Part shown: piece after piece, positions 27,497 to 53,384 of the stretch
How positions within the stretch are numbered: position 1 is the first letter of the stretch
How the letters are laid out: each line of letters begins with the position of its first letter
Source of the DNA: Lingula anatina
Taxonomy: Eukaryota; Animalia; Brachiopoda
NCBI GenBank assembly: GCA_051362555.1
Contig: CM120643.1
Coordinates: 248,001 to 312,000 of the forward strand
Direction of reading: 5' to 3'
Length of the DNA: 64,000 nucleotides
Position numbers and translations under genes: made by a program
Notes under the pieces: generated by a model
What the model was told of the DNA's origin: nothing
Database searches by the model: none
Seen by the model: the letters and a program-made list of their open reading frames with translations, nothing else

Positions 27497-27893
27497 ATGT
27501 ACAAGTACGATGCGTATATGTGCTATGCAGATGAAGATGTAAACACTGTAGAAGAAGTCGTGGATAGAGTAGAACGCCAAGGATTTCGGTGTTTCTTTGG
27601 TAAACGGGAAATTCTTCTTGGACGTAAAATTGTCGCCACAAGAACTAAGAGATTAGAAGCATCAGAATTCATTGTTGTTTTCCTGTCGCGTAATTTCACC
27701 AAAAACGTATGGTGTAACCATGACATTTTCTTAGCATTGCAATGTAAATCTTCGGAATCATATCCGCAAAGTATAGTCCCGATCTATTTAGACATAGACA
27801 CGGAAGATGTACCTCAACAACTTCAACAATTTCAAAGTATTAGATATGACGACACTGAGTTCTTCACAAAACTGATTCGTCGCCTTGAGGCTG
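27497..27893 (+). CDS. TIR domain exon (TIR_2-like)
   Basis: MYKYDAYMCYADED..GFRCFFGKREILLG..SEFIVVFLSRNFTKNVWCNHD..IVPIYLD; acceptor ttttcag at 27480, donor g|gtaagt at 27893. Confidence 0.9.
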
Positions 27894-27929
27894 GTAAGTG
27901 AACTACATATGTTATAAATACGATACTGC

Positions 27930-28459
27930 TGTTATAGTGAGAAATGACGACAGCAGTTTGGAGCTTCCGAACGTTTATTCACCGACTCTCTCTTCATACA
28001 ACTTCACAAATATTTATACTCAATTTCTCCGTACTGATCACGCATTTACTTGTTTTCTTTTCCATTGTCTTTGCGTGATTACAAAATATTTTCCATTCTC
28101 ATGTTGCAAGTCACTATGCGACATTTCCGTATTAGGTAATCCTTAAGGGACTTGTTTTCAATTAAAGATATCTAAAATATTATTTGGATTACTCATACTT
28201 GGATCTTATCCAAAACTCAGTTATCATGTGATAAATAGATGATCAAAATTAAAATATGTTATGAAATTAACCAATCACATTAACTGTTACTGACTTTGAC
28301 CTTTTCCATCTTTTTCTGACACTAAAAACATGTTCTACACTTGTTGACTCTTGGAGAAACTTAACTTTCACTCAATAACTCTTTGTCTTTTTACTCTTTT
28401 GATTCCGCTTTAATTGCTATCTGTAATTAGTGAAAGTGTAAGTAATTTGCTTTACAACA
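27930..28459 (-). repeat. 3' LTR
   Basis: tgttatagtg..tttacaaca; the polypurine tract lies at 28460-28473 on the minus strand. Confidence 0.95.
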
Positions 28460-31247
28460 TACACCCCTTCTTCAAAAGAATTCGTCCTCGAATTCTAAAA
28501 CTTTACAACATACGCTCCTTTTTCATTTTTTTTTAAAGCAAAGCAAATACTAAATAACACAAAATACTTAAATTAAAAAAACTTAAATGATAAGGTCACA
28601 GATATGTCATCAATTTTAATGTTATACGCAATGTTTGTCAGATTCTGCAAAATGAAATAAAATAATAATGAAAGAAAATAATGATTATCTTCCTTAAATA
28701 CTCCATTTCTACCACAAAGTCATGCAAAAATATAACTAAGAAAAGTAATTCTATATAATTAACTTATACATAAAATTAGAAACATATTCGACATGAAACA
28801 AAAATATAACCTGAAGGAAGATAATGTTATAAGTTTTTAAGAAAATGTAATTCTTCGTGGATATAGTTTGTATTGTCATTTACACCATTTAATGTGTGGC
28901 CCAAGAGCAAAGATACTTTTTATCAGTTTTCTCATGAGGATATCGAAATATTTTGCTCTCTTATTATGGCTCTGACACATCATATTATACAGTTTTCTCT
29001 TTCGGCTGTTATTAAAACATAGTAGGAATGTGCTACGTAAGACAATAGGGTTAGCTACTCCCTGTCCAATGAACAGCAATCACCACAACGTTGCGACCCG
29101 CGCATCGTTCATGATGAAGTACATATTCATCTTCATATTTGTCCACATTGTAGCTCTCCTCTGTGATGACTTATAAGAGAAACACTTGATCACATCAAAT
29201 TCAATCCACGAATTTTTATAAAATTATACCGATAAATAATTAAGTCGCAAAATGTGAGGATCTTCCTTAATGCATATCATCAGTTTCATGTCATCATTAT
29301 TAAAAACCAAATACACTTTTTATATAACAATAATCATCTGTTCAAATATTGATAACCAACAATCATAAGATCAATATGTAATATGTTTTTAACATGCAGT
29401 TACATTGTAAAGTAATTAAAATAAAGCATGCTAATAAATAATGACCATGGTTAACACACAATAAAATGTTCATTATTATATATCAAAGTACATAATGATT
29501 AAAAAAAAACATCGTAATATTTGTCAAGACTTACAAGTGTCATGTTAATTCCGTGCATCTCGCATACTCTCAATAATAATAATCTGAAATGTCTGAAATC
29601 ATTGAAGTAACAATAAGAATGAATCATAAAGTCATTCATATGTTGTGATCGTACACACACTTCTTACACCAAAAGTTCACTCGCAAAGATTAATGCGTAA
29701 AGTTTATTAAAGACACGTGTAGCAAGTCAAGTCAAATTCAGATTGGATTAAAATTAATCTGCATTATGATTATATGTTTCGAACTGAACATAGAAAAGTG
29801 CATTAGCATGTTTAATACGCAAAAATGCATAATATTCACTATTGAATAATTTTCAGGGTTTAAAAGCTGTGAAAAGTGACAATGGGATAACTCGTTCCAA
29901 AATAACGTTTTTGTTTATCATAATGTATATAATTGTCAAGCCATGTCAATGTTTTGACAGATGTAGTCTGTAGATACAAAAACTTAAATGAACTTGTCGA
30001 AATTATTATAGTTATTACTTCATTTTGTAATAAGAATGAATCTGTGGTCATAAGTTCCTTCGGCTTATTAATTGATTTTGTTGCGAAATTTTATGATCAC
30101 TACGGTAAAGTAAGCACTATATCGTTTACGTATACTTTTTTAAGTAAAGCCACTATTAATGCCAATTGTTTGTCCTTGATATACAGACCAAATTTCATTG
30201 TGAGCAATAAGCTCTATGTCTCGAATAAATTTAAACTAGTATTTGAGATTAATCATCTGTAGAAAATATTTCGTTTGTTAGAATAGCATCTGCCATACAA
30301 GTATAAATTTGCTCTTGTCTCTCTCTGTTGTTTGAGTCACTTTCATAATCTCAAATAATCACTAACATTATTGGCAAGAACATGAAGAAAAATTGTTGAA
30401 ATAAGGTTTATTAAATAAATCATTGCGTTTCATGTCGAAAATATGCATATTGAATGGAAATACTGCCACAAACCAATATTTATGTGATGTTGCTGTGCTA
30501 TCTTTAGTGTTGTTTTGACAACTTGACACTTGGTTGGAAAATAAAAAATTCATCTTAGTTCACACTGCAGTAGCAAAAAAAATTTGATTGACACATTAAT
30601 GACAACTATTTAAAGAGGTCGTTCTTCTAGGGCATTCCGGGGTAATGTCAGCGACTGACTTGTCAAAACATCTCGTCTTTATTTTGTCAGTTTACTATGC
30701 CTTCCATTATGATGTGGCGTTAACCTTGTGATAACTTGTATAACATCGTTCGGATGTAACGTTTACTCATATGAATAAAATCAATGTTCTTTGTTAAACA
30801 GTTCTTCAGAAACAAAATTGTCTACACTCAACACCGCTGAGCGTGCTGATGCTGCCACAACATTACAGTGAGAATTCATAGAATCATCATTTCAAAAGGT
30901 CAATGCTCTTGGTTTTTTTCCAGTGCATATCGCTTTAACTTCGCCTCTTTTAGAAAAAGATAGGAAATAAAATAGATAGAATAGATAAGAATACAGCAAA
31001 CCGGTTTGCGTTTAAGGTTCAGTTAAGCTGTATCACTCTTTTGTCCAAATTATACATTTGACCTTTGTGTACTCTTTTACAACGTGTAAGTGTAATATTT
31101 TTTTTATTTACCAGTGTATCGATTATCGAACTCGTCTCGAAGAGATGTGTTTCCTTTTTAATTTCTACGCTTTCTTCGTCTTCCTTGTAACGTCTTATTG
31201 ATATGATAATCTCTTTTTAATGCATCTGAAATATTTTCTTCAGGTTC

Positions 31248-34200
31248 CTAGGAAGTGTTCTTATAACCCTTCCATTTTACTTTGTAATGTCTCTTTGCGT
31301 TTATATTCTTACAACATAACAATTTTTCTACTTCATAATATTCGTACGCGTCTTGCTTACTGTCCGATGCAAGTTCCACTTTTTCTGTGTCATGAACGTC
31401 TCTATCTTGCGTTTCACTGGTCGTTTTATTCCCATTTGATTTGTTGTCTTGCTCATTATTACTTTCATTCAGCCTTTTATATTTATTGTAATCTTTAGGA
31501 TCATAATACATCTTCAATCTGTTTGCATGAACAGGCGATTTATGTTCCTTGTGTGTTTTACAATCTCTCAAATAATACGTGCAACCTGTTGATAATATCT
31601 TTGTAATGTAATATGGTCCTTTGTATTTGATGTACAATTTAGAACTTAATCCTTTAGGTGTCATTGGTGTATATATCCAAACTCTATCACCTACTTTATA
31701 AATCGGTTGCTTTGACTTTAGGTCATACCTTTCTTTATACTGTTTCTGAGTTGCTTCCCTATTCTTTGTTGCAATTTCTTTTGCCGTTTTAAGAGTATCT
31801 TTCAATTCTTCAATGTACTGAGGTAGATTTTTATTCTCATGACATTCAGGGATCAAATCACTATCCAATGGTGTACGCATTTCTCGTCCAAATACTAAAT
31901 AATAAGGAGAAAACTTTGTGGACTGAGTACAAGGAGTCGCAAGTAATGCCATCATTACTCCTGGAAGTATATCAGGCCAATTAGTTTGATCTTTCTCACA
32001 ATATGCTCTCAACGTTTGAGCAATTATTGAATTAGTTCTTTCACAGGCTGCGTTACTTTGTGGATGCCATGCACTAGTATGATAGCGCTTGATATGGAAT
32101 AATTCACACAACGACTGAATAATTTGAGACAAAAAATTCTTTCCTCGATCAGAAACGAGATATGACGGACAACCATATCTTGTAAACACCTCTCTGTAAA
32201 GAGTCTTGGCGATTTCTTCGGCTTCCTGAGTTTTCAAAGGTATTGCTTCAGCAAAATTGGAAAAAGAGCATGTTACTAACAAAATATACTTGTATCCTTC
32301 TTTTGATTTTATCAAAGGACCTAAAATGTCCATGTGCATTCTTTCAAACACGCCCGCGATGGGTAAAGGGTTCAAAGGTGCTGGAGCATCTCTACGTAAA
32401 TGTTTAACCTTTTGACACACTTCACATGATTTTACGTACTCCATGACGTCTTTATAAAGTGACTTCCAAAAATACTTATTCCTAATGGAGGCAAAAGTTC
32501 TATCACAACCTTGATGACCACCGGCTGTTAATGAATCATGATATGCATGTAAAACATCACTCCTTAGTGTTACTGGAATTGCTAATTGTCTTATTATTCT
32601 CATCTTTTCTGGCATTCCGCGTGTACGAGGTTGATACAGATGATACAAAATATCATCTATCATTACATATTGTTCTGATTCTGCAATGATTTTACGCGCT
32701 TGTTTCAAATCACTAGGTAAATCACTTTGTTCTAGGTAACGTATTATATCTTGAAACTCAGGGCATTCGCGTTGATCTTGTTTTAATTTCTCTTTTTCGT
32801 TTACATTTGTAATATCAACACTATTCATGTCATCATATTCACTTGAGTTATGTTCAATTCTTTTATCTGTTTGTTTTGGTAAGAAAAGTTTAGCTTGGGT
32901 CCAATGTTTATCTTGACACATGTCAATATGACCTTTTCTTAGCTGACTGTTGTTAACAGTATCCAAAACATTTACTGGTTCATATTCGCGTCTCGATAAT
33001 GCGTCAGCTGGGTTTGTTTTTCCAGGTCTGTGAATTATTTCAAAATCTAGGCCTTGTAATTTTAATGACCATCTGATAAGCCTGCCAGATGTATGTTTCA
33101 CATTTTGTAGCCACGAAATTGCTTTATTATCTGTATACACTTTGAAATGGTTGTTGGACAAATATTGTTCAAATTGCTTTATTCCTTCAATAACTGCCAA
33201 ACATTCTAATTCATGAATTGTGTAGTTCTTTTCCGCATTGTTCAAAGATCTTCCTCCATAGGCAATAACTCTATCATGGTTGTTGTCATTCTTTTGACCT
33301 AAGATATAACCTATAGCTATCGTAGACGCGTCTGTCGTTAGTGTAAACTCGCGCGACATATCTGGATAAGCCAGTATTGGTGGTGACATTAACGCTTCTT
33401 TTAGTGTTTGAAATGACGCTTCACATTCAGGACTCCATAGGAATTGTACGTCTTTCCTTAAAAGTTTATTTAAGGGATCTGCTATTTTACTAAAACCTTT
33501 TATAAATTTTCTGTAGAAGTTACACAACCCTAGAAAACTTCTTACATCTTTAACAACTTTTGGTGTTGGAAACGATTTTATGGCTTCAAGATTTTTCTCG
33601 TCTGGTCTTATTCCATTTTTATCAATTACATGACCTAAATATTTAGCTTTTGGTGTTGCAAACTTACATTTTGATGGTTTAAGTCTGAGATTTGCAGATC
33701 TTAGTTTTTGAAATACTTGATTTAAATGTTTTAAATGATCTTCAAATGTCTTACTCATGACCAAAATATCATCTATGTATATCAGTATTGTTTTCCAATT
33801 CATGTCTCTGAAAATGTGACTCATTAATGCCTGGAAACTAACACCGGCGTTACGAAAGCCATACGCTAAACGTAAGAATTGGAAGTGACCATGGTGTGTG
33901 ATGAAAGCAGTCTTGTGTTTAGTTTCAGGGTCAAGAGGTAATTGCCAGTATGCACCTGCCATATCTAAACTAGAGAAGTATCTAGCACCTGATGTACCTA
34001 TCGTTTCAAATATATCTTCTAAACGTGGAAGTGGCCAATGCATGGGTTTTGTGACTTTGTTCAACTTCCGGTAGTCAATCGCGAATCTGTATTCTGTATT
34101 TTTCTTTTTTACAAGTACTACTGGACTACTGTACTCACTCATGCTTTCTTCGATTATACCGTGTTGTAACATTTCGTCTACTTGTTTGACAATTTCATCT

Positions 34201-36170
34201 TTCAGCTTCGGTGACGTACGATAAAATGTTTGTTTAACAGGGATATCATTAATTGTGTCAATCCTATGTTGATACAAATTTGCTGAACCTAATTCTGATA
34301 GATTGGTAGCAAAAACTTCACGATTACGTCCTAACAAAATTTTCAGCTGTTGTTTCTGATCTTCACTCATGTCTGAATCGGCCAAGTTTAAATTTAACTC
34401 ATCTGCATTCCGCAATGCTTCTTGATCTGATAACCTATCACCTTTTTGTGCTGTATCTCCTTCTGACATTTCATTTAAAGCACTGACGCTTGCCAGACTC
34501 ACTGAACTCGCAACAGCTAATATTGTTCTTTTGGGAATGAAAATACTTTCATCGCTAGGGTTCATTACTCTGTAAGCAGATTTATTTTTATCAATAGAAA
34601 CTAAACATTTTGCTCCAATAAGTTTTTTCTTTGACTCAAGCTTTCGTACTGGTTCTAGTAAAGCTACTGAAACAGAGGAAGAATGTGATATTTTCACTGG
34701 TATTAAGCATTCACATCTGGGAGGAATAAATTCTGATTTAAAGTTACGCACTAAACCTAATACAGGTGGACTATACAAAGGTAAGAGCAAATTATAATCA
34801 GGCAATGCTATGCTATCAGACGATAAATCAATTTTTACATTGTGTTTTCTTAAGAAATCTGTGCCTAATATCAAACCTCTTGGCAATTGACTAAATACGT
34901 GGACTTTATGTTTTATGATCACATCTCCAAAACAAAGAGGTAACTCTACTTTTCCCAGAACTTTAATCACAGATCCATCAACAACTGAAACTTCTTTTAA
35001 TGACGGTTTTTCGTATGAATTTCGATCCTTTTTTCCTAATTTTGATAAAAGAGATTCCGATACACAAGATATGACGGCACCTGTGTCAACCAAAGCATTG
35101 ACATGTTGTTTGTCGATTTGAATTGATACTAGATTACTAGCTTGGTAATCGGAAATAATAGAAATTGGCACTTTCCTATCTTCAATCTTGTTATAAAACC
35201 TTTTTCTTTTTCTTAATTGTTTGTTTACACGTGCAGAATGACAGACTTTTGCTACATGTCCTATTTTACCACAACAATTACAGTTAAGATTGCGAGCAAA
35301 ACAATTAGTTCTGAGATGTGTGTACTCACCGCATCCCTGACACAGCGACCATTTTCTTATTGGATTTCGTTGTTGAGGATAGTTCGTATGTCCAGATGAT
35401 GTTAATGTGTACTCTGAGCGTCGCAGATACCTGCTGCGTTGTGGTATACTTCTGGGACCTATGGTGTTGGGAGTGAATTTTCCTGGATACTCTGTAGGGT
35501 TCGCTCTTGGATTTTCAAAGTTTGCTTCATTTCTAGTCTCACTTGGGTCTTGCAATAGATGGATTGCAGATTGTGCATTGACGGCGTCTTTAATTGAACT
35601 CTGAAGAGTGTCTATTTTCTCTGTTATCATTTTTATCATTTTTATGTCATTTCGTTGACCTCTTCTCGTCGGCTGAACTGCGTTTTCTGCAATGCGCGCG
35701 TTGTGCATAAGAGAATCAAAGTCAGAGGGCTCCTTTTGCAATACAAATGGGCGGATTTCGGGTAGTAACCCATTCATTACCACTGTAAAGGCTGTTTTCT
35801 CATCTAAACGCGCACGTTTGGCGTCGTGACGCATCGACTCAATATAACTCTGTACTGGTTCTTCTGGCAGCTGTTGACGTCTGAAAAAAACTGAGGCTTT
35901 CTCCCAAGTTTCTCCGGATTTCAGTTCATATCGCTGTCGGAACTCGCGGACTAGCGATTTCCAGTCTTTCTGTATTTCCACTGTTAAACACTCGTACCAG
36001 TTTAACACTGTTTGATTAAGTAAGAGAGGAAATAAGGCGGTGATTTGTTCATCTTCTAGTTTTTTATACTGCGTATAATTTTCAAATTGATTTAACCACC
36101 TTTCGACATCTTCGTTTGTGTTACCAGTAAACTTTTCTGGTGCTAAAGTCAAATATGACAACATCTTCAT
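31248..36170 (-). CDS. Gypsy gag-pol polyprotein (Gag with two CCHC knuckles, protease, RT, RNase H, integrase, GPY/F, truncated chromodomain)
   Basis: 1640-aa ORF: CxxCGKIGHVAKVC, LVDTGA, YIDD, TTDAS, H..GHQG..CEVC, VSDRG, GPY, YEVEKLL..YKVKWKGY. Confidence 0.97.
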   Translation of the reverse strand: MKMLSYLTLAPEKFTGNTNEDVERWLNQFENYTQYKKLEDEQITALFPLLLNQTVLNWYECLTVEIQKDWKSLVREFRQRYELKSGETWEKASVFFRRQQLPEEPVQSYIESMRHDAKRARLDEKTAFTVVMNGLLPEIRPFVLQKEPSDFDSLMHNARIAENAVQPTRRGQRNDIKMIKMITEKIDTLQSSIKDAVNAQSAIHLLQDPSETRNEANFENPRANPTEYPGKFTPNTIGPRSIPQRSRYLRRSEYTLTSSGHTNYPQQRNPIRKWSLCQGCGEYTHLRTNCFARNLNCNCCGKIGHVAKVCHSARVNKQLRKRKRFYNKIEDRKVPISIISDYQASNLVSIQIDKQHVNALVDTGAVISCVSESLLSKLGKKDRNSYEKPSLKEVSVVDGSVIKVLGKVELPLCFGDVIIKHKVHVFSQLPRGLILGTDFLRKHNVKIDLSSDSIALPDYNLLLPLYSPPVLGLVRNFKSEFIPPRCECLIPVKISHSSSVSVALLEPVRKLESKKKLIGAKCLVSIDKNKSAYRVMNPSDESIFIPKRTILAVASSVSLASVSALNEMSEGDTAQKGDRLSDQEALRNADELNLNLADSDMSEDQKQQLKILLGRNREVFATNLSELGSANLYQHRIDTINDIPVKQTFYRTSPKLKDEIVKQVDEMLQHGIIEESMSEYSSPVVLVKKKNTEYRFAIDYRKLNKVTKPMHWPLPRLEDIFETIGTSGARYFSSLDMAGAYWQLPLDPETKHKTAFITHHGHFQFLRLAYGFRNAGVSFQALMSHIFRDMNWKTILIYIDDILVMSKTFEDHLKHLNQVFQKLRSANLRLKPSKCKFATPKAKYLGHVIDKNGIRPDEKNLEAIKSFPTPKVVKDVRSFLGLCNFYRKFIKGFSKIADPLNKLLRKDVQFLWSPECEASFQTLKEALMSPPILAYPDMSREFTLTTDASTIAIGYILGQKNDNNHDRVIAYGGRSLNNAEKNYTIHELECLAVIEGIKQFEQYLSNNHFKVYTDNKAISWLQNVKHTSGRLIRWSLKLQGLDFEIIHRPGKTNPADALSRREYEPVNVLDTVNNSQLRKGHIDMCQDKHWTQAKLFLPKQTDKRIEHNSSEYDDMNSVDITNVNEKEKLKQDQRECPEFQDIIRYLEQSDLPSDLKQARKIIAESEQYVMIDDILYHLYQPRTRGMPEKMRIIRQLAIPVTLRSDVLHAYHDSLTAGGHQGCDRTFASIRNKYFWKSLYKDVMEYVKSCEVCQKVKHLRRDAPAPLNPLPIAGVFERMHMDILGPLIKSKEGYKYILLVTCSFSNFAEAIPLKTQEAEEIAKTLYREVFTRYGCPSYLVSDRGKNFLSQIIQSLCELFHIKRYHTSAWHPQSNAACERTNSIIAQTLRAYCEKDQTNWPDILPGVMMALLATPCTQSTKFSPYYLVFGREMRTPLDSDLIPECHENKNLPQYIEELKDTLKTAKEIATKNREATQKQYKERYDLKSKQPIYKVGDRVWIYTPMTPKGLSSKLYIKYKGPYYITKILSTGCTYYLRDCKTHKEHKSPVHANRLKMYYDPKDYNKYKRLNESNNEQDNKSNGNKTTSETQDRDVHDTEKVELASDSKQDAYEYYEVEKLLCCKNINAKRHYKVKWKGYKNTS

Positions 36171-36385
36171 TTTTTTTCAGTTATTAATTGTTGCTAGGGT
36201 AATGACTTTTGGCGATTTTCAATACCCAGCATACCCAGTTTTCGCTGCACTGGGGCACTGACGATGTTTGCCTCTGAGTGGATGGTGTGAACCCTTCGGT
36301 GTGAACCCTGCTGCCGTCATCACCATAACTGTATCAACGTTCTGCTTGCCTCGGTAGAGCAGGGATCGATTTTTCCTCCACCACT

Positions 36386-36915
36386 TGTTATAGTGAGAAA
36401 TGACGACAGCAGTTTGGAGCTTCCGAACGTTTATTCACCGACTCTCTCTTCATACAACTTCACAAATATTTATACTCAATTTCTCCGTACTGATCACGCA
36501 TTTACTTGTTTTCTTTTCCATTGTCTTTGCGTGATTACAAAATATTTTCCATTCTCATGTTGCAAGTCACTATGCGACATTTCCTTATTAGGTAATCCTT
36601 AAGGGACTTGTTTTCAATTAAAGATATCTAAAATATTATTTGGATTACTCATACTTGGATCTTATCCAAAACTCAGTTATCATGTGATAAATAGATGATC
36701 AAAATTAAAATATGTTATGAAATTAACCAATCACATTAACTGTTACTGACTTTGACCTTTTCCATCTTTTTCTGACACTAAAAACATGTTCTACACTTGT
36801 TGACTCTTGGAGAAACTTAACTTTCACTCAATAACTCTTTGTCTTTTTACTCTTTTGATTCCGCTTTAATTGCTATCTGTAATTAGTGAAAGTGTAAGTA
36901 ATTTGCTTTACAACA
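36386..36915 (-). repeat. 5' LTR
   Basis: Near-identical to 27930-28459; the adjacent ctccacca at 36376-36383 is a tRNA-Ala-like PBS on the minus strand. Confidence 0.95.
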
Positions 36916-38503: not shown

Positions 38504-38731
38504 GGTTTACACAGCGATTCCGGCAATTATGTGCAACAGTGGCGGTTCCAGTTTACCGGCAGCGAGTAGCTATTGTTGGACCTTCTGCTGTGGGGAAGAC
38601 TCATCTCGCCAAGCGCCTCATCCAGGAGGAATGTGACGAGGAAACAGACGCGTGTACACCAGGCTTGAAGATATACCGTCACAGGTGTATCGTCCACAAA
38701 GCCGGTCAATCATGTTGGGTCAAAGGAAAAG
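38504..38731 (+). CDS. Roc GTPase exon with P-loop
   Basis: RVAIVGPSAVGKTHLAKRL..CTPGLKI (G1 and G2/switch I); phase 1-1. Confidence 0.85.
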
Positions 38732-39289
38732 GTAAAGAGGGTATGACACTTAAGTGCATCAAGGGCATAACAACGGAATGCAAAAATTATATGCCATTTT
38801 ACTTCAAACCCATCAGTGATGAATTGAAGGTATGCTGTCTACGTTTGAAAACGACAAAAACCTTAAGCACCCCTAGTACTCGTAAATATCTTTTTAGGTT
38901 ATTCGGCAAATTTCTTCGAATACAACTACGATACTGTCATTTCCGAGGAACCTTGGTCTTCTTAATATTCTTGTGAAACTTAGTCTGGTTTAATCTGTAA
39001 ACAATAAAGTGTGTAAAGCTGAAGCTTGATTGGCCATACCTTTACTTAGGAAAGGATACATTTAGATTCGCTAGTCAAAATAGAAACGCAGAGTTTTACA
39101 TCTATGGTTTTAATACATTTTTCATAAAATATGGTTGGATAAATGGTAGTGTATTGTTCAGTAACATGTGTGCACTTCCATGGATGCAATACAGGCTAAT
39201 AACATCCTCCTCTAACACCGTACGTGACTCCGAATACAGACCCGGGGCATCCTTTTCCATTCTTCCACTAGTGCTGCTCTTAACTCTAT

Positions 39290-39565: not shown

Positions 39566-39718
39566 ATGATCCAGAAGTCCAATTTGTACAACAAGTGGCA
39601 ATTGGAATACAGAAACCAGAGACATTTTCCCAGACAGTCCAAGCGGACTTACCGCCATCAGCGGAATCCCGAGAGTTGGAAGAGGATGTTTGGGACGCCA
39701 CGCAGCAAGCACAGACAG
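39566..39718 (+). CDS. Insert exon within the Roc domain
   Basis: ctcag|AT..ACAG|gtgc, phase 1-1, open frame DDPEVQFVQQVAIGIQ..AQT. Confidence 0.7.
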
Positions 39719-39786: not shown

Positions 39787-40110
39787 AAGGGATAATAACT
39801 CTACGTTCTGGCCAAAAATGAATTTTCCTGGAGAAGACAACAATTTTCCCATACTAACCAATGGTTAATGAATCCATTTTTACATTCAAAGTTAGTCCCT
39901 GGTTTTTTTCTAAAAAGTTTTGGTGTTTGTTAAAATCTCTTAAGAGATTAGCCATCAAAGGAGGTCACGTGGTCTAAAGACAAGCCCAGATATCAGAATA
40001 ATAGCTGTAAGTGTCGTTTTTGTGGTAAAACAGAATGTTTTATATTTCTATGAGTTATTCACAATGTTTTTATTGTGAAATATAGATCTCACACGAAGAG
40101 TTATTATCCC
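39787..40110. mobile_element. TTAA-associated MITE (Kolobok-like termini); second copy inverted at 60296-60626
   Basis: TIR agggataataactc(t)tcgt ... cgaagagttattatccc after TTAA; the interior is the reverse complement of 60296-60626. Confidence 0.75.
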
Positions 40111-41671: not shown

Positions 41672-41713
41672 CCGCTCCCCCTGGTGGCAGTGTCTCACCT
41701 GACAGAATTGCAG
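41672..41713 (+). CDS. 42-nt mini-exon within the Roc insert
   Basis: ctacag|CC GCT CCC CCT GGT..GCA G|gtgagt, phase 1-1. Confidence 0.65.
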
Positions 41714-42094: not shown

Positions 42095-42334
42095 AGGAAA
42101 TTTACAGCAAGAATATCGACCGGCGACTTCTGGATAAAATAGAGTCGCTTGCTCAAGGTGAACCTGTCCATCCCGAGAAACAGATCACAATTTGGGATTT
42201 TGCCGGTCAAGACGTCTATTACACCACGCACCAGACGTTCCTCTCAGAGCAGAACATCTACTTGTTGGTGTTTCGGCTTGACGTAGACCTCGATGCCAAA
42301 ATCCGTGTATACAGAAGAGAGAAGACGGTGAAAG
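42095..42334 (+). CDS. Roc exon with G3 motif
   Basis: QITIWDFAGQDVYYTTHQTFLSEQNIYLLVF, the diagnostic Roc signature. Missing from the ORF track. Confidence 0.93.
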
Positions 42335-43696: not shown

Positions 43697-44853
43697 GAAG
43701 CTGCTGAGGAGATAATTGGAAATCTCAGGGACTATCTCGACGACAAGCATGAACTAAAAAAACACATTTACCTTTCCTTTGCCATAAGTAACTTGGCAAA
43801 AAATGAAGAGTTTAGTAAAATAAAAGAAACGATCGAGCATCTTTGTAGTCTTAGCAGTGACAATCAAATGCACCCAGTGAGATGGTTCCAACTGGAAATG
43901 GATTTGGCAAAGAAGAGTGAGCAAAAGCCAATCATAGATATAAAAGAGCTGCGTGAAATAGCGCGCTCAGTGGGGATCCTTGAGGCCGAGTTACATGAAA
44001 TGTTCATTCCTTACCATCACCGTCTGGGAGACGTCCTACACTTCAAAGTTGATGGACTGGAAAATGTCGTCATACTGGATCCACAGTGGTTGGCAGATCT
44101 TTTTTCTAAAATCATGACCCCGCCCGTCAGTAAAAGTGGAGAGGATCGCCTGGATTTTCTGAAACTAGGTCTGGAAAAAGGAGAACTAGACGAGGAGGTG
44201 TTTGATGTGTATTTGCAGGAGAAAAAGATGACCAAAGACAGAAGTAATTCAACTGATGGAGCATTTCGACCTGATATTTGACATATCTGAATCAGTTGAA
44301 TCCCCAAGGATGCCACCCTCACAGCCTGGAAGGAGAACATTCGTCGTGCCTTGTATGCTGAAATACAATGACCTGGCGGATTATAAGCTTTCTGAGATTG
44401 CTCTAAAAACATCTTTATTCATCTCATTCCCTCACGGTTTCTTTCCTCCGGGGCTGTTCCATCGTTTGATCATCCGTCTATTTAGGAAGTATAAACCTTA
44501 CCATTGTGTAAATGGCATCCCAGATGTTAGTTTTGACCACGCCTCCTTCCGTCTGGAAGACAAAACATCTGTGCTTCATCTCTTCACTGCAGAAAAGGAC
44601 ATTGAACTAGTGATAGATAACGCTGAGCGTAACATATACTTCAACGCACGACAAACAGTGGAAGACGAGTTGTCCTATCTTCAAGAGACATACTGTCCCA
44701 GAATGCATTTTGGCTACTTTATCAGGGTAAACGATAAGAGACGCAAAATTCCGATAGAAGCAGAGACCGTTCTAAAAACAGATGCCATCCGTGTATGCGT
44801 AGAGAAATCTGACGAAGAGATTGAGCTGAAACCATATCGTGTTTGGTTTACAA
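43697..44853 (+). CDS. Roc C-terminus plus COR domain exon, frameshifted at ~44232-44255
   Basis: FAISN..HPVRWFQLE..YHHRLGDVLHF..VVILDPQWLADLF in one frame; LMEHFDLI..FVVPCML..FPPGLFHRLI in the +1 frame. Confidence 0.9.
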
Positions 44854-44990: not shown

Positions 44991-45032
44991 CGGTTGAGAA
45001 AAAACCACGTAGTCCTCAAAGTCTGGAGGCAG
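44991..45032 (+). CDS. Linker mini-exon after COR
   Basis: atttcag|CG GTT GAG..GCA G|gtaagg, phase 1-1, no stop codon. Confidence 0.7.
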
Positions 45033-45350
45033 GTAAGGTTGCTGCACGTTTATGTACCGAACATGAATGCTGCCATTGGCAACAACAAATAGGGGTTTTG
45101 ATAGTTCAATGCCGGTGACACAAATCATGATTGATCGCTATTTCTGACGCCAAACTATAGGTTGTGAGGGAGTCGGCTGGCATCTTGATCTCCAGGGGCA
45201 CGACACGAGCAAGATACCTTATATCTGATTCAATTTGGGACAGTGGTCAAAGTATTTTGACCTTTTTTTTTTCAATTAGAATACACACCCACGAAGTTTT
45301 CTTTAGAAATGTATAAAATATTGATTTTTAAGCCCCACAACTAAGACTTA

Positions 45351-45565
45351 GGCTCTATTCCCATAGATTTTAGATCGATCTATCCCCGCGGGGAGTCTCA
45401 CTAGATTACTTTCAGATAATCCGACTTAAATGTCCGTCCCGTCTACTACAAGCTGTAAGGAGGTAATTAACTTTCGTGTCCGCCGGGCTGACAGCTATTT
45501 AGCGTGAACCCCCAGGGAGTTAGGTCGATCTAAAGTAGGTCGATCTAATCTATGGAAATGGGGTG
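45351..45565. mobile_element. PIF/Harbinger-like MITE
   Basis: Imperfect TIRs (ctattcccatagat..gatcgatct / ggtcgatctaatctatggaaatgg) with TTA flanks; related copies near 11655 and 54060. Confidence 0.65.
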
Positions 45566-46348
45566 TTAGTGTCAAATGTATTTTATAAGACGTGCCCTAT
45601 GGTCGCATTCAGAACAGAGGACCCGTGGACTAACTGGGCTGGTCAAATATGGTCGATTCACGAAAGCAATACCGCTAAAACCCTAATGGTCTACCCGCCG
45701 ACCACAAGCGCCAGCCCTGCAGGGGCCTAGCTATTAAACCGCGTCGCCGAGATATAATCAGTGTAATAGATAGTCTCCTGCAAGCCTGGCGTTAATTTTG
45801 ACAAACATGACAAAATACGCTATATTACACAGTAGTGGGCCTGGTTTCTTTGACACTACGGTGCATTCTGTTATACTTTTGTAACAGTAAATTCTTGAAA
45901 GTTCTTCTCTTTATAGTCCCTTAACTGTTTTCAAAATTCGTGATCATGTACAAAACGGTTTGAGAATGTGGGTCACCTCTAAGCTATGTTCTACTGCATG
46001 GCGTAAACGTAAAAATTACTAGTCGCGAGCATCTCAATATAAATCACCAAAAGTATGCCAACTTTCGTCTAGGTCTCACACTGTGTACATGTTTCCTTTA
46101 CTGAACCCCGAATTTAACAAGGGACTGCGCATGCGCATGGGGGCACTATGGGAACTGGTGCATTCTGCCGGGGACCATCGGGGGGGGGGGGGGCACCAAA
46201 TATGTCCAGACCATATTAGCAGGACAAAATACGGGGCCCCATAGCTAGTGCCCCCGATGACCCCTGATTTTGACCAAGGTTGGTAGCCAGTGAGCCGATG
46301 CTCCCGCAAATATTTTTAACCATATTTTGCTATGAAATCGATATTTAA

Positions 46349-49311
46349 CAGTCATATGGCAACTGGCTGCGCGTAGGAAGATATTCAGAACGGAGCGCGT
46401 GCGCTGAGATGACGTCGCGGTTGAAATTTTGTAAATTTCGCAACCAGCGCGGAAATTAAAGAATTGGACTTTATTACCTCTGTAGGTGCTTATGAAAAGT
46501 TAAGGCATGGTAGCAGAGTTTATCACGCGTCTGTAAGTGTGAGATTTACCCAGAATCAAAGTGAAATGAAGGAAATATAACGCGACAAAGTCGGCCAACA
46601 TGCCGATTATTATCCATAGCAACACCGTAACATTTTGAGATATCTCCTATCACAGAGAGTGTGCACCTTATTCCAGTCGATAGAAAATGACTTTTAATAC
46701 ACAAAATAAACCTACCAAGTTTCATCAGAATTTATTCTGGCAACTTTTTTTGCCAGCTGTCGAAGTGCGTTTTTGACCCTATTCCGCTAGATGTCAGCCA
46801 TATTCTGACGTCATTTTTTCCAATACAGAAGCAAGTGAAGGTCTGCTGACTTTTTCAAATATCGAAAATCAAAGTACTTATCTTTTATTTCAGTAACAAA
46901 ACTATATTTCCAATAATTATAATAAAAAATCAATGTGTTAAAATAACTTTTACCTTCTCGGATGTCTTAATTCAAAATGACGATTTTTATCATTATCGCA
47001 CCTGCAGTTCTGCGCTGTCGATGAGAGTTCTTCACCAAATTTGTCGTCATACAGCAGTCTGCACAATTTTGAATGAAAAATCGACTTAGCATCAGAGTAT
47101 CCAGTTTGTTCACCATTACGCACTAGGTCTCAAACTCTGTTGTTTATTTCCATTATCAAATTTCAGCAAACAAAACGACTTCAGAATTTAGCACTGCACG
47201 CGTCTTTGACACATTTCCACTTGGTGTAGGGGAGTTCAGTTTGTAGCAGACACTTGGCATGACTTTTAATGGGAAAGGAACACTTAAAGTTGCATGAAAA
47301 GTAAACGATGTAAATCTTGATATTTTTTTGCAAATACTCAATAGATTTAAAATCGTATTTGAAATTATTTATACAAAAATCTCAGTACATGTTACTGAGC
47401 TGTCCCCCTCAATTCTTTCTTCTACAAAAATGGACTGAGCCGCACACATTTGGAATGTGGCACTGGTATCTTTTTTGATACAATTTGGATACTTTTTGGA
47501 GATTTGCACATGGGTCAACCAAGTACGCTTTCCAAATTTACAAATTTTTCACTGCATGGAATGAACAGTACATGTGCACGTTCTGGCAATGACACTTTAT
47601 TTGTATCAGGACACATATATAACTCAAACATATTTCCATTGTAAAAGTGTGTCGTGAGACTCGTGATCGTAGAATCCACTTATATTATTTTTCTAACAAT
47701 TCCATATTTTTAAGCTTGTATATTTTTTAATTTACTACATGTATTTGGTGTTGGTCAAAGGAGAAACTATAAAGGGCAAAGATACACTTACAATCTTAAA
47801 TTGGCGAGTTACACTCATGATAAAAACTATCAAACATTGAATGTAAAGTTCAATTTCAGTTAAACAAAACTCAGAAATGCATAAATCGCTTTCAGGCTTC
47901 TATTTGTATACATATATGTGTAACAAAAAAGTATCACTAATTTCATTGTGGTTTGATCATTTTTGAGAAGCTTGCGGTACAGTTAAAATAAGAAAACTGC
48001 ACATGTTTTCTCTCATCCAATCTGCCATGAACAGGTTAAGTATGCCAGAAAACATATTGGCACATACATGTACAGGCAGAAAAGCTCTTCATCTGTGAAT
48101 TCTGAAATAATGAGAAATAAAGAAGCTGACAATAATTGTAATGAAAAAAATAACAATAAATAAAAAGCTAACAGAGCAATTTTAGAATACGCTCAGGTAC
48201 GTAGAGTGGTACGGATTACATATCATACCCGTACATGGTAAACCCATATGGCATTCAATGAAAGTTAAACTAAACAACATGAATTGCGTTTTACTTTAGA
48301 AGGTCTGCTTTACAAACGTAATCACTAACCAGAATTACCTTTGTTAAATGTCTGTCATCCTTTTCAGTTCTAGAGTTCAGCTACAACCCGCAACAGATCC
48401 ACATTTATCCGCCTCTCTCACTTCTTTACACGTGTTCACTCCAATTTGTTTACGCAAACTCTTAATACATATGTAGGTCAACATATAATCTCCTGCATAA
48501 ATATTATTAGATTACGTAAATTCAAACCCTTTTCCTACGGTAAGGCCCTTCAAAAATGATAAATTCTCATTAATAAAATCATTCAAATGTGGCCCAATAT
48601 TCCAAATGCATATCCACAAGCACATGTTTGCCTTTTGCGTATCACGTATCAAGAATAGGTGAAGGTCGTTCATAAAAATACTCACTGAAACTAGTTCAAA
48701 CTAGATTTGTGCGATTCAGCATCGATTTCAGGTTAGTTTCAATTAAATGTGAATAAAATATGTAATCTTTAACGGTTTTTAGATAGAAAAATTTTATAGT
48801 TTGGCAGAGGTATCGAGAAGCGCCATTTTTTTCCAGATTTTTAGTTGAATGTTGGATTAGGGAACCGTGTGACCATACTAGAGAGTGTGCAAACTATTCC
48901 CTTCAAAATTTTAAACTTTGGATGATATTTTAACTTATATCTAAAAATGAAAAAAATTCAGGCTGGCAACTTTTTTTCTCGCAATATAGTCCCACCCCCT
49001 ACGAGAGTCATTTTTGGGTCGATTTTTTTTCAGAAATTCAATATCGTGAACTAATTTCATTTAAATTTGTGGATATTTCAGTAATCCTTTGAAATCATGA
49101 GTAAGAGCATGAACTTTTCTTATTATCTTTACAAAATCACAACTCAAAACGCCCTGGTTTGTTTTTAAAAGGATTTTATTTGCAAGGTACGGTTTTTCAC
49201 GTCAGCCATCGCAGATGTCCAGAAACGGCGCTACTTCGTGACGCGGACTCACTGAAAAGTTTCAAATAACCGCCATGACGTTACGTTTTTCAGCCAGTTG
49301 CCATATGACTG
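46349..49311. mobile_element. ~3-kb non-autonomous DNA transposon with TTAA target duplication
   Basis: Perfect 21-bp TIR cagtcatatggcaactggctg at both ends, TTAA at 46345-46348 and 49312-49315; no transposase ORF. Confidence 0.88.
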
Positions 49312-49355: not shown

Positions 49356-49435
49356 GTACAAACAGGGAGGAGAAAGTTAAGGTCTGGCCTTGTACAGTTG
49401 AACTCTTTGAGAAGAAGGCGTATGACGCTAAACGG
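49356..49435 (+). CDS. Caspase N-terminal exon bridging phase 1 to phase 0
   Basis: tttag|GT ACA AAC..VKVWPCTVELFEKKAYDAKR|gtttg, similar to caspase-2 VKPCTPEFY. Confidence 0.7.
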
Positions 49436-50073: not shown

Positions 50074-50078
<5 letters not shown>

Positions 50079-50137: not shown

Positions 50138-50139
<2 letters not shown>

Positions 50140-50298: not shown

Positions 50299-51360
50299 TA
50301 CCCCCTTTACACTGGACGGCGTCCTTTCTGCGACCATGAAATTTGGCATCGCTGTGGTCTTAATAAGGAGGCACGAGCATTGATTTGGTATCAGAATGAA
50401 TGCTCAATGATCGGCCAGTTGTTGGCACGTAAAGTATTCTGAACAAAAATATAAACGCACGAAACTAAAATTGTCAGTTGAAATGGATAATCATGAAGTA
50501 TGCCCAGGTTGATGGTTTATTTGTGAACTGATGGATTTGTTTTGATCAATTATAGTGGTCTGGTTTCACTTGGCCGCTCCCCGTGAGTATACTCAAAGGT
50601 TCAGTTTTTACACCCATAAGACTAATGGAGCATGACGGAGTAGAGGTCAATCTGCAAGACCAATACTCTCTACCGTCTAGGCAATAAAAGGGCACACAGA
50701 AATGTGTATTTCTGCCACTTGTCAACATGCCACAGATGTCTGGAACCATGAGGGAGCATGCCACCAGCATGCTCAATGCTGGCTTGTCAGTAACAGAAGT
50801 TGCAGCATGCCTGAATGTGCATCATTCCACTGTCAGCCGTATGGGAACACGCTTCAGAGACACTGATAGCATTAGGAACCACCCTCATGCACCATGTCGC
50901 CCAACAAACACCTGTGGAATGTTCTGGATCAGAGTTTTCAGCCATCATGTTCCAGCTCTCGAAAATGTTCGCCAACTGCAAGAAGCACTCCAGGAGGAAT
51001 GGGATAATATCCCTTAGGCCTCTATTGACAACTTAGTGATGTCCATGCGCCGCTGGTGTACTGCTCTGCACAAATTTAATGGTGTCTGTGAACTCAGGAT
51101 GTTGACCCCCATGGTGTATTTGCTGCCCTAACTCTTGGACTATGCATTTAAACTTCCCCTAATTCTCTCAAAGTGATGTCTATTTGTCGAGAAAAATATG
51201 CTGTTATTTTTGGCTATGCACTCTAGTTCCATATATGAAACTAAATCTACATATTCTTTCGTGCGTTTATATTTTTGTTCAGTATATTATAATTCTTTAA
51301 CTCTCAAATTAGGCCGAACTGCTGGACGCAGAAGGGACGCCGTCCAGTGTAAAGGGGGCT
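50299..51360. mobile_element. Harbinger-type MITE interrupted by a nested Tc1 element
   Basis: TIR ccccctttacactggacggcgtcc ... ggacgccgtccagtgtaaagggggc; removing 50435-51284 restores similarity to 42404-42621. Confidence 0.8.
50435..51284 (+). mobile_element. Internally deleted Tc1 element
   Basis: TIR ctgaacaaaaatataaacgcacgaaa / tttcgtgcgtttatatttttgttcag. ORF 50727-51017 has the HTH (GLSVTEVAACLNVHHSTVSR) fused to the C-terminus (LQEALQEEWDNIP). Confidence 0.88.
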
Positions 51361-51493: not shown

Positions 51494-51710
51494 GCTATTG
51501 ACCAACTAGCCACACGTGAGGCAAGAACTGATCACAGTGCTTACTCTTCCTTCATCATGGTGATCCTGAGTCATGGTGGAGAGAACACGGTGATAGGCAC
51601 TGACGGTTATCACATAGGATATGACCAAATTCTGGCACACTTTGAGGCTTCCAGGTGCCCGACACTGAACGGCAAACCCAAGATGTTCTTCATATCTGCG
51701 TGTTAGGGCA
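51494..51710 (+). CDS. Caspase catalytic exon containing an in-frame TAG
   Basis: SSFIMVILSHG (His 51572) ..CPTLNGKPKMFFISAC*G (Cys 51701, TAG 51704-51706). Confidence 0.93.
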
Positions 51711-52242: not shown

Positions 52243-52313
<71 letters not shown>

Positions 52314-52462
52314 CAAATTGTAAGGACGTGTAATGTGAGTATCATTAGATGCCGTCTGCAAAATCTTTGTCCTGTTAGAGTCTTCCTGGCTGCATTTTGA
52401 CCAAAGTGACCATTGTTTGACACCGGGCACCAAAACTAAGTTTTGCTGAATTGACCTTTCAG

Positions 52463-52572
52463 GTGACAAGTCTTGGCGATCTACTGAACGTGGTACGTTT
52501 TTCATTCAGTGTCTGGTGAAAGAGCTCTCGGAAAGAGCATGTGACACCCAACTACTTGATATATTGACACAG
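52463..52572 (+). CDS. Caspase small-subunit exon
   Basis: DKSWRSTERGTFFIQCLVKELSERACDTQLLDILTQ. Confidence 0.92.
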
Positions 52573-53264
52573 GTAATCACGTATTACAGCAGTTCTCTTT
52601 GAAAATCCAAGAAATTAATAGAGAAAAGGGAAAACAAAAATAAAGACAAGGGGTTAATGTTGTCCCCATCAACTATCACACCCGGTAGCTAGGTGTGGCA
52701 GGAACGGTAGACCGCTTGCATCCGTAGTCCCCATTATTTTGTACAGGTGATATTCGTTTCATGAGATAGATGGTTCTTATGGGATGCGCCTAGCTTTTAG
52801 TGCCAGTTAAAAATATCAGAAGGGACTTTTTATACGTTTTAAATGCATGTCCTTCTGCGGCCTCACGAAAGCCGAATAGGTAAATGCACTGATGTGATCA
52901 ACGGAGTATATCTCCCTTTGCATTGGGCGACGTCCTTGCTGCGTCTTTTGCACGACCATGGAATTAGCATCGCTCTGGTTGTAGAAAGATAGCACACGCA
53001 TCGATTCGGTTGCAACATTAATGCTCAATGATCGGCCAGTTGTCGGCACGTAAAGTTTTTTTTTTTTTTATCTCAAACGGGGGCGTATTATGGAACACAG
53101 AAAGAACGCTGCCCAGTGTAAATAATATCCCAATTAACCCCCCTTTACACTGGACGATTATATATGAAATAATTATGAAAAGTAGCAAAATATAAATAAG
53201 AATAACACATTTCGAAGAAAGTGGTTGATGTTGCTATGTCAACTGGTTATTGTTTATCAACAAG

Positions 53265-53384
53265 GTGAACGACAGTGTCTCCAAGATGCCAACTCAAGAT
53301 GGCTGCCGACAGATATCAAGTATATCGACGCAAACATTGAGGAAATCTTTGTATTTCTGGCCAGGGCTGTACTATCCAGAGTGA
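53265..53384 (+). CDS. Terminal caspase exon
   Basis: VNDSVSK..RQISSISTQTLRKSLYFWPGLYYPE*, with TGA at 53382-53384. Confidence 0.9.
   Translation: MNDSVSKMPTQDGCRQISSISTQTLRKSLYFWPGLYYPE

What the first reader, a model, noticed from the sequence alone, without database searches (positions are those of the whole stretch)
27497..53384. A single gene encoding TIR + Roc GTPase + COR + caspase: candidate self-contained immune/cell-death switch
Seen: 14 exons join through canonical splice sites with matching phases. They give an N-terminal TIR, a complete Roc (GPSAVGKT, WDFAGQ, GTHKD), a COR (LDPQWL, FVVPCML, PPGLFHRL), a short linker and a complete caspase (RGRAVIINN, LSHG, KPKMFFISAC, SWR, TLRKSLYF). 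No separate start, CARD or DED prodomain was found for the caspase; exon 49356-49435 supplies exactly the phase 1->0 bridge from the post-COR exon. Established: Roco proteins (LRRK2, DAPK1, MFHAS1) use Roc-COR as a nucleotide-regulated dimerisation module, initiator caspases are activated by induced dimerisation, and TIR domains nucleate signalling assemblies. Inference: TIR recruitment and Roc-COR dimerisation could directly activate the tethered caspase, replacing an apoptosome, PIDDosome or inflammasome platform. I do not know of a characterised animal protein with this architecture, but could not search for one.
Basis: partly seen in the sequence, partly recalled or inferred. Interest (0 to 1): 0.93.

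Follow-up and report, generated by a model that had tools for sequence, protein, structure and literature searches.

The report
Broken TIR-Roco-caspase gene in a brachiopod
This brachiopod gene likely joins an immune-signalling TIR domain, an LRRK2-type GTPase switch and a caspase in one transcript; this copy is broken, but uninterrupted predicted GTPase-caspase relatives occur in four animal phyla and would be untested one-protein cell-death switches.

Summary
The 14 exons, their phases and all four domains are real. It has a frameshift in COR (~44240) and a stop right after the catalytic Cys (51704), so the as-is product is 589 aa and has no caspase. A very young LTR retrotransposon also sits in intron 1.

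The species is Lingula anatina. Spliced contigs of run X3 confirm four introns and the frameshift. Junctions 27893>38504 and 45032>49356 have only indirect support.

Eleven of 271 scanned proteins carry COR then caspase (Lingula, Owenia, Branchiostoma, Exaiptasia, two unnamed); none shows a TIR. Trees indicate repeated fusions and swapping of TIR, HEPN, Bcl-2 and NHL modules on Roc-COR. The caspase is caspase-Y-like; the TIR has Asp at the NADase Glu.

Likely working: recruitment through TIR, then a Roc-COR monomer-dimer cycle pairs the tethered initiator caspase (untested).

In print: one ROC-caspase (Owenia) and predicted bacterial AP-GTPase-caspase/TIR proteins; I found no report of the four-domain form. 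Earlier scan notes show similar bacterial and protist Rocos, not this. New variant of a known kind.

The parts
27481..27893 (+). Exon 1: TIR domain (ATG at 27497, splice acceptor before 27481, phase-1 donor); Asp in place of the NADase Glu
   Evidence: Pfam TIR_2 6.8e-18; alignment to Roq1 and TLR TIRs; acceptor seen
27930..36915 (-). Ty3/gypsy-type LTR retrotransposon with chromodomain in intron 1 (1642-aa ORF 31248-36176; LTRs 27930-28459 and 36386-36915; 4-bp target duplication)
   Evidence: ORF; Pfam RT, RNase H, integrase, protease, chromo; LTRs differ at 1 of 530 bases, TG..CA ends
38504..38731 (+). Exon 2: Roc N-half, P-loop GPSAVGKT and switch-I Thr
   Evidence: Pfam Roc 1.6e-5; joint to 39566 in X3
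39566..39718 (+). Exon 3: insert inside Roc (phase 1-1)
   Evidence: X3 joints on both sides; aligned in paralogues
41672..41713 (+). Exon 4: 42-nt insert exon (phase 1-1)
   Evidence: X3 joints on both sides
42095..42334 (+). Exon 5: Roc G3 (WDFAGQ)
   Evidence: Pfam Roc 1.5e-8; joint from 41713 in X3; RefSeq P0123
42742..42866 (+). Exon 6: Roc G4 (GTHKD)
   Evidence: RefSeq P0123
43697..44853 (+). Exon 7: Roc G5, COR-A and COR-B
   Evidence: Pfam COR-A 5e-17; COR-B fold Z 12.9 to 3dpt
44232..44281 (+). Frameshift between COR-A and COR-B (7 nt where paralogues have four codons); the shifted frame stops at 44279-44281
   Evidence: X3 record 3 covers 44045-44853 with 0 other letters and 0 gaps
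44991..45032 (+). Exon 8: post-COR linker (phase 1-1)
   Evidence: aligned to the P0002 and P0003 linkers
49097..49106 (+). Intronic ATG plus strong donor that fits the start of RefSeq caspase model XP_013409672.1 (possible separate first exon)
49356..49435 (+). Exon 9: pre-p20 segment (phase 1-0)
   Evidence: identical to the N-terminus of P0125; joint to 49639 in X3; 11/28 identical to P0002
49639..49812 (+). Exon 10: caspase large subunit start, with the S1-pocket Arg
   Evidence: Pfam C14 1.1e-8
51494..51710 (+). Exon 11: catalytic His (LSHG) and Cys (ISAC), followed at once by an in-frame TAG at 51704-51706
   Evidence: P0125 has Gln at this codon
52080..52184 (+). Exon 12: intersubunit linker and p10 start
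52463..52572 (+). Exon 13: p10 with SWR
   Evidence: Pfam C14 2e-5
53265..53384 (+). Exon 14: p10 end and stop
   Evidence: aligned to P0002
59400..59571 (+). Orphan copy of caspase exon 10 (84% DNA identity); no other exon of the gene duplicated in the window

Best explanation
This is likely one Lingula anatina gene for a TIR-Roc-COR-caspase protein, disabled in this copy by a frameshift and a stop; an intact form would likely act as a GTPase-switched, self-activating initiator caspase in immunity. Shown: the exon chain, the four domains, both breaks, four spliced introns, and uninterrupted Roc-COR-caspase models in relatives. Inferred from trees: a Lingula Roc-COR scaffold family swaps end modules. 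TIR, HEPN or NHL sit in front at the same junction; caspase or HEPN sit behind. Roc-COR gained caspases more than once in animals. Inferred mechanism for an intact protein: (1) the TIR, which has Asp at the NADase Glu, is a docking domain that brings the protein to TLR/MyD88-type TIR assemblies; (2) the Roc nucleotide cycle sets a COR-COR monomer-dimer balance; (3) the dimer pairs two tethered caspase-Y-type domains across a 27-75 residue linker and activates them without an apoptosome. If the C. tepidum cycle holds, the GTP-loaded monomer is 'off' and the GDP or empty dimer is 'on'. This copy would give only a 589-aa TIR-Roc-COR-A fragment, probably removed by nonsense-mediated decay. My odds: one gene 0.85; this copy makes no active caspase 0.9; dimer-driven activation in intact family members 0.5.
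For: Gene: 13 of 13 canonical introns in phase. X3 joints 38731>39566, 39718>41672, 41713>42095 (depth 11) and 49435>49639 (depth 22.6). The X3 contig with exon 2 has 415 nt before it, against 413 nt for the TIR exon from its acceptor. The COR contig leaves the genome exactly at the 44853 donor and runs on 70 nt, longer than the 42-nt exon 8. The short side of the 49435 joint is 81 letters, which an upstream exon ending in AG (exon 8) predicts and the ATG start exon (79) does not. P0002 is 59% identical over 878 columns and continuous across the exon 8/9 join. Family: 11 of 271 proteins have a caspase after COR. Named ones come from Lingula, Owenia, Branchiostoma floridae and Exaiptasia. The window's Roc-COR is sister to a HEPN-Roc-COR with no caspase (SH-aLRT 98). 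One clade of nine tethered caspases is rejected (p-AU 4.9e-83). Caspase fold Z 31.6 for the P0002 model. Recent loss: 18 of 238 private changes at otherwise invariant Roc-COR columns, against 1-15 of 221-235 in five paralogues, and 1 of 53 in the caspase. Context: APAF-1 was found only in flatworms among lophotrochozoans, and Lingula lacks caspase-2 (PMC11463336).
Against: Neither key junction (27893>38504, 45032>49356) was seen letter by letter; the contig arguments are lengths only, and the 81-letter side could be the exon 10 side. RefSeq splits near-identical pieces into two models on records of different length (P0123 on 645,407; P0125 on 566,206), and P0125 has its own Met. None of the 15 proteins with caspase plus Roc or COR showed a TIR in Pfam (for P0271 only 5 of 6 families were listed). 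A search with the TIR exon among longer proteins found 0 of 272 candidates at E 1e-8. No intact copy of this gene was seen. In three raw RNA runs, COR-exon depth was only 0-1.9 (6-25% of reads read), and X13's exon-2 reads carry paralogue letters. The caspase has Ser for the Gln of QAC (6 of 109 caspases read). All relatives are predicted models, and no activity is known for any.
Confidence: 0.6

Rival explanations
1. Two neighbouring units: a broken TIR-Roc-COR gene, and a separate prodomain-less caspase that starts at the ATG at 49097.
For: RefSeq model P0125 begins there. P0123 and P0125 lie on records of different length. Junction 45032>49356 was not displayed. Depth is higher at the caspase joint (22.6) than on the COR contig (9.6). 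PMC11463336 lists this caspase with a blank prodomain.
Against: Paralogue P0002 is continuous through the same linker. The COR contig splices out at 44853 and runs beyond exon 8's length. The 81-letter side fits exon 8, and an X3 piece crosses 49097-49101 unspliced (48889-49264). A gene finder facing the upstream frameshift would pick the nearest ATG (inference).
Confidence: 0.12
2. The gene is polymorphic: this haplotype is dead, but an intact four-domain allele exists in the species.
For: The RefSeq copy has Gln where the window has TAG. Its two readable breaks each fit loss of one A in an A run, which is a common sequencing error (inferred from the C-terminal tails). Few private changes. 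The retrotransposon is very young.
Against: The RefSeq Roc-COR piece also breaks at the same COR site and skips 21 residues. No intact protein was found. X3 carries the window's frameshift.
Confidence: 0.3
3. In intact family members Roc-COR restrains the caspase within one chain, and activation comes from TIR-driven or other N-terminal clustering or from cleavage, not from COR dimers.
For: GTP makes C. tepidum Roco monomeric (PMC5714945 abstract). Intramolecular control by the DAPK1 ROC domain is in print (titles; details recalled, not read). The same scaffold also carries HEPN at either end.
Against: A full COR-B, the dimerising subdomain in bacterial Roco (recalled), is kept. The caspase always follows a short linker of 27-75 residues in the four proteins measured.
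Confidence: 0.25
4. The TIR exon is a chance capture through a phase-1 intron. The four-domain chimera never worked and is decaying, although Roc-COR-caspases without TIR do work.
For: No relative has this TIR. Every copy seen is broken. Intron 1 is 10.6 kb long (1.6 kb without the element).
Against: The TIR exon is open, complete and in frame with its own ATG. It joins at the same point as the HEPN and NHL modules of paralogues. The X3 contig length fits its use.
Confidence: 0.15

Closest known systems
Owenia fusiformis ROC-prodomain caspase CAH1786849.1 (Horkan et al. 2024, PMC11463336; passages, section 10 and supplement search seen)
   Same: Roc-COR followed by a caspase of the same clade (97/83). 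The paper places it in caspase-Y.
   Different: It has Bcl-2 in front, not TIR. The passages I read name ROC only, not COR, and suggest binding to kinases. Its supplement lists this gene's caspase piece with a blank prodomain and lacks three full Lingula Roc-COR-caspases.
Bacterial AP-GTPase (Roc)-COR counter-invader proteins (Kaur et al. 2021, PMC8195603; section 15 and passages seen)
   Same: Roc-COR core with swappable effectors; TIR and caspase are among at least 24 listed C-terminal domains.
   Different: Bacterial and predicted only, with N-terminal LRRs and one effector at a time. Here the gene is animal, intron-rich and LRR-less, with TIR in front and a true caspase behind. Six animal accessions were not found in 12 of 13 supplement files.
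LRRK2, LRRK1 and C. tepidum Roco (also DAPK1 and MFHAS1, recalled)
   Same: Roc G1-G5 then COR-A and COR-B; sequence and fold matches.
   Different: No kinase, LRR, ankyrin or WD40 domain; about 120 residues lie between switch I and G3; the output is a protease.
Lophotrochozoan caspase-Y (CARD initiator caspases)
   Same: The caspase groups with the Lingula PARP-caspase and the Owenia ROC-caspase, next to CARD caspases and outside the DED clade.
   Different: No CARD; SAC instead of QAC; about 800 residues of TIR-Roc-COR in place of the prodomain.
Metaphire vulgaris TIR-domain caspases (PMC11463336, passages)
   Same: TIR as the N-terminal domain of a caspase.
   Different: No Roc-COR is reported; their sequences were not examined here.

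Membership tests
Roco proteins | Roc GTPase with G1-G5 motifs | tested here: met
   motifs at model positions 158, 183, 307, 386, 423; Pfam Roc
Roco proteins | COR (A and B) directly after Roc | tested here: met
   Pfam COR-A 5e-17; COR-B fold Z 12.9, rmsd 3.0, 176 aligned to 3dpt
Roco proteins | Roc-COR in one open reading frame | tested here: not met
   frameshift at about 44240 in this copy; met in paralogues P0001 and P0002
Roco proteins | GTP binding and hydrolysis | not testable with these tools
   needs biochemistry
Roco proteins | COR-mediated dimer | not tested
   no complex model was obtained; left open
Caspases (C14A) | Caspase fold with His-Cys dyad | tested here: met
   LSHG and SAC motifs; Pfam C14; P0002 model Z 31.6, rmsd 1.8, 217 aligned to procaspase-3
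Caspases (C14A) | S1 pocket Arg, Gln, Arg for Asp specificity (roles recalled) | tested here: inconclusive
   both Arg present; Gln is Ser, as in 6 of 109 caspases read
Caspases (C14A) | Large and small subunits in one translated chain | tested here: not met
   TAG at 51704-51706 in the window; not checked in reads
Caspase-Y (CARD initiators) | Caspase domain inside the caspase-Y clade | tested here: met
   groups with the Lingula PARP-caspase (95/86) and Owenia CAH1786849 (97/83); clade name taken from members placed by PMC11463336
Caspase-Y (CARD initiators) | CARD prodomain | tested here: not met
   no CARD in Pfam scans of 11 exon pieces or of P0002
TIR NADases (plant TNL, SARM1 type) | Catalytic Glu in helix alpha-C (role recalled) | tested here: not met
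   WCNHD aligns with WCLEE of Roq1, giving Asp at the Glu
Bacterial AP-GTPase counter-invader systems | N-terminal LRRs | tested here: not met
   TIR in front; no LRR found
Bacterial AP-GTPase counter-invader systems | Variable effector after COR among paralogues | tested here: met
   caspase, HEPN or none in Lingula paralogues
APAF-1 / NLR (STAND) platforms | NB-ARC or NACHT ATPase | tested here: not met
   the NTPase is Roc; other P-loop families scored below their cut-offs

The most novel reading that the evidence does not exclude
An intact allele encodes a working TIR-Roc-COR-caspase: one protein that docks on Toll-like receptor assemblies, uses an LRRK2-type GTP cycle as its threshold and fires its own initiator caspase. 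It is one of a convergently evolved class of animal Roco-caspases with swappable sensors (TIR, Bcl-2, HEPN, trypsin-like), standing in for the apoptosome in lineages that lost APAF-1 and mirroring the predicted bacterial AP-GTPase defence proteins.
Probability: 0.25. Interest if true: 0.85.

Novelty: new variant of a known kind. Interest (0 to 1): 0.6.

Why it matters
Molluscs, annelids and brachiopods lack APAF-1 and Lingula lacks caspase-2 (PMC11463336), so how their CARD-type caspases are switched on is open. A caspase tethered to Roc-COR gives a direct and testable answer. It would also be a natural reporter of the Roco monomer-dimer cycle, which is debated for LRRK2: protease activity would read out the oligomer state. 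The repeated fusion in four phyla, with module swapping, suggests that animals use Roc-COR as a defence scaffold, as predicted for bacteria. The value lies mostly in the intact relatives (XP_013407220, XP_013412607, CAH1786849, XP_035660786). The TIR-bearing copy here is broken.

Tried and rejected
No whole genome is held for this window, so paralogues could not be read as DNA and no dN/dS was possible. No RNA holder was listed by the run index; this is no evidence either way. Read-level views of the 45032>49356 junction, the TIR junction and the stop codon were not obtained; these stay open.

The TIR exon against longer proteins gave 0 of 272 candidates (weak evidence). The same TIR as a phmmer probe hit none of 271 proteins, including a known Roc-COR-TIR, so that probe is insensitive. 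The ESM Atlas gave only generic TIR clusters. A pre-p20 motif count did not separate groups (4/12, 4/17, 1/12), and the linker script stopped after four proteins. Foldseek and VIA lists for the whole P0002 model were filled by caspases, so COR-B was folded alone.

The alternative exon 2 donor at 38830 (phase 0) was rejected because X3 uses 38732. Assembly error as the cause of the frameshift was rejected as far as X3 shows it, though X3 may not be independent of the window's source. One clade for all tethered caspases was rejected.

Paper searches for the four-domain form or for Lingula Roc-COR-caspases found only PMC8195603 and PMC11463336 (with its preprint) as relevant. Most subscription papers are outside the library, including a Lingula immune-gene survey I recall but could not read. 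One of 13 supplement files of PMC8195603 was not searched. One search returned nothing useful. The scan's own notes had nothing for this genome or for P0002.
Full report
1. The observation. All quoted motifs are present in order on the + strand. I rebuilt the gene by coordinates: 14 exons and 13 of 13 GT..AG introns in phase. Pfam finds TIR_2 (6.8e-18), Roc in two pieces, COR-A (5e-17) and Peptidase_C14 in three exons (15 pieces scanned, 11 of them from this gene). The second half of exon 7 was weak for COR-B by sequence (E 0.06). Folded with 69 sequences it gave pLDDT 91.6, and the top 8 rows against 48,161 chains were all Roco proteins, led by C. tepidum COR at Z 12.9. The Roc has about 120 residues between switch I and G3, spanning two small phase-1 exons (3 and 4).

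The finding leaves out that the frame is broken twice. Exon 7 shifts frame at about 44240, with 7 nt where paralogues have four codons. Exon 11 has TAG directly after the catalytic Cys. Read as it stands, the gene gives 589 aa: TIR, Roc and COR-A. Intron 1 holds a Ty3/gypsy element with an open 1642-aa ORF, LTRs that differ at 1 of 530 bases and a 4-bp target duplication.

2. Is it one transcript? The run index listed no RNA holder. Run X3, guessed there to be DNA, behaves like RNA (inference). Its contigs skip four of my introns at GT..AG ends: 38731>39566, 39718>41672 and 41713>42095 at depth 11, and 49435>49639 at depth 22.6 (38 further joints were not displayed). The two junctions that matter most were not displayed. 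Three length clues fit them. The exon 2 contig has 415 nt before exon 2, and the TIR exon has 413 nt from its acceptor. The COR contig stops matching at the 44853 donor and runs on 70 nt, while exon 8 is 42 nt. The short side of the last joint is 81 letters, as expected if exon 9 is preceded by an exon ending in AG, as exon 8 does. These are clues, not proof. The same COR contig has 0 differences and 0 gaps over 44045-44853, so the frameshift is in that sample too; X3 may not be independent of the window's source. The stop codon lies outside the laid stretch. Three raw RNA runs showed 0-1.9 depth on the COR exon, and X13's exon 2 reads all carry letters that give the P-loop of paralogue P0001.

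3. Species and other copies. The COR-B piece hit 4 of 415 candidates, all Lingula anatina. Two RefSeq models are near-identical pieces of this gene. XP_013396488.1 (P0123) covers Roc-COR-A, ends at the same site as the window's frameshift and skips 21 residues. XP_013409672.1 (P0125) matches the caspase at 210 of 211 residues, has Gln at the window's stop, loses frame in exon 13 and starts from a Met that fits 49097. They lie on records of 645,407 and 566,206 bases. Their two readable breaks each fit one missing A in an A run (inferred), so that copy may be intact in the animal. I could not test this. The window copy has drifted little: 18 of 238 private changes at otherwise invariant Roc-COR columns, against 1-15 of 221-235 in five paralogues, and 1 of 53 in the caspase. 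The loss therefore looks recent.

4. The family. Searches with P0002 and the cluster look-ups gave 271 proteins at the time. Fifteen have a caspase plus Roc or COR, and 11 of them have the caspase after COR: Lingula P0002, P0004, P0119, P0124 and P0126; Owenia P0127; Branchiostoma floridae P0139; Exaiptasia P0145 and P0271 (one locus, two models); and unnamed P0133 and P0171. Four have it in front (P0121, P0153, P0218, P0227); some may be mis-joined models, since RefSeq splits P0121 in two. N-termini vary: Bcl-2 in P0127, HEPN in P0271 and a trypsin-like domain in P0124 (Atlas lead only). No TIR was seen in any of the 15 (5 of 6 families listed for P0271). Close Lingula paralogues carry HEPN before Roc, HEPN after COR, or NHL before Roc, and the N-modules join where the TIR exon joins.

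On a quick Roc-COR tree (84 of 162 rows; near-copies and isoforms thinned), the window is sister to HEPN-Roc-COR P0001 (98). The 'caspase after COR' label needs 9 changes, at least 4 forced by starred branches, and is no more clustered than shuffles (144 of 500 as low); long branches meet in places. On a careful caspase tree (46 rows picked from 118: nine tethered, 17 CARD, 12 DED, eight others; P0119, P0153, P0218 and P0271 left out, P0171 too short), the window groups with P0002 and P0124 (100/99). Next come the Lingula PARP-caspase (95/86), then a clade with Owenia P0127 (97/83) beside CARD caspases (95/88). The amphioxus caspase pairs with a CARD caspase elsewhere (100/99). One clade of the nine is rejected (p-AU 4.9e-83). 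I defined the group by architecture but after seeing a quick tree, and rejection does not exclude one origin plus losses within lophotrochozoans. At least the amphioxus fusion looks independent.

5. How it likely works. For an intact protein every step is inferred. The TIR has Asp where Roq1 has Glu, so it is likelier a docking domain than an NADase. The caspase sits among CARD-type initiators, which are generally held to be activated by dimerisation (own knowledge; PMC1088972 re-examines this model, listing only). Roc-COR keeps all G motifs and a full COR-B. C. tepidum Roco is a dimer when empty or GDP-bound and a monomer with GTP (PMC5714945, abstract only). With linkers of 27-75 residues (four proteins), a COR dimer would pair two caspases. 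The simplest model is therefore: GTP-loaded monomer off; recruitment through the N-module and GTP turnover on. Rivals are intramolecular restraint, two separate genes and a chance TIR capture. The P0002 model (pLDDT 79.2, pTM 0.64) shows a disordered linker (596-613) and a canonical caspase fold (Z 31.6). No dimer model was obtained.

6. What is known. Horkan et al. 2024 (PMC11463336; passages, section 10, supplement search) report one ROC-prodomain caspase in Owenia inside caspase-Y, TIR-caspases in Metaphire, APAF-1 only in flatworms and no caspase-2 in Lingula. Their tables list XP_013409672.1 and XP_013381226.2 with a blank prodomain and do not contain XP_013401300, XP_013412607 or XP_013407220. 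Kaur et al. 2021 (PMC8195603; passages, section 15) predict bacterial LRR-AP-GTPase-COR proteins with TIR or caspase among their effectors. Six searches found no paper on a TIR-Roc-COR-caspase. Earlier scan notes describe bacterial and protist Rocos with TIR or a paracaspase-like domain; I did not check them.

7. Verdict. The architecture is real and probably one gene, but this copy is a recently disabled allele or pseudogene. It works like a Roco switch wired to an initiator caspase. It belongs by sequence to the Roco family and the caspase-Y clade, and it is not an NLR, an LRRK or a TIR NADase. New variant of a known kind; interest 0.6, carried mainly by the unstudied intact relatives.

Noticed in passing
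window 27930-36915 (-): Apparently intact, very young chromodomain Ty3/gypsy element 36 bp after the TIR exon donor; LTRs differ at 1 of 530 bases. Described only.
   Followed up: partly
window 59400-59571 (+): Lone copy of caspase exon 10, 84% identical and closer in peptide to P0002; flanking intron DNA at 59832-60285 resembles 28849-29305. Possibly the remnant of a local duplication.
   Followed up: partly
window 61994-63514 (-): 506-codon open frame with no Pfam match.
   Followed up: no
window 9192-9902 (-): Exon of a Ras-like GTPase with a long N-terminal extension (Pfam Ras 5.6e-5).
   Followed up: no
window 2566-6366 (+): Exons of an EGF-repeat extracellular protein.
   Followed up: no
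window 40402-40782 and 50688-51017 (+): DDE and HTH transposase remnants in introns 3 and 10; repeats at about 39790-40110 and 45350-45570 draw very many reads.
   Followed up: no
P0127 (Owenia CAH1786849.1) and P0126 (Lingula XP_013407220.1): Bcl-2-Roc-COR-caspase: Pfam Bcl-2 5.3e-23 in P0127; P0126 has a similar-looking N-terminus without a Pfam hit, and their Roc-CORs group (97). A Bcl-2 domain and a caspase in one protein may be more striking than the TIR form.
   Followed up: partly
P0124 (Lingula XP_013412607.1) residues 30-225: N-terminus resembles trypsin-like proteases in the ESM Atlas (0.96; a lead only), so a possible protease-Roc-COR-caspase.
   Followed up: partly
P0197 and P0137: A caspase-RIG-I helicase fusion and the Lingula PARP-caspases fall in the same caspase clade, so this clade is often fused to immune modules.
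   Followed up: no
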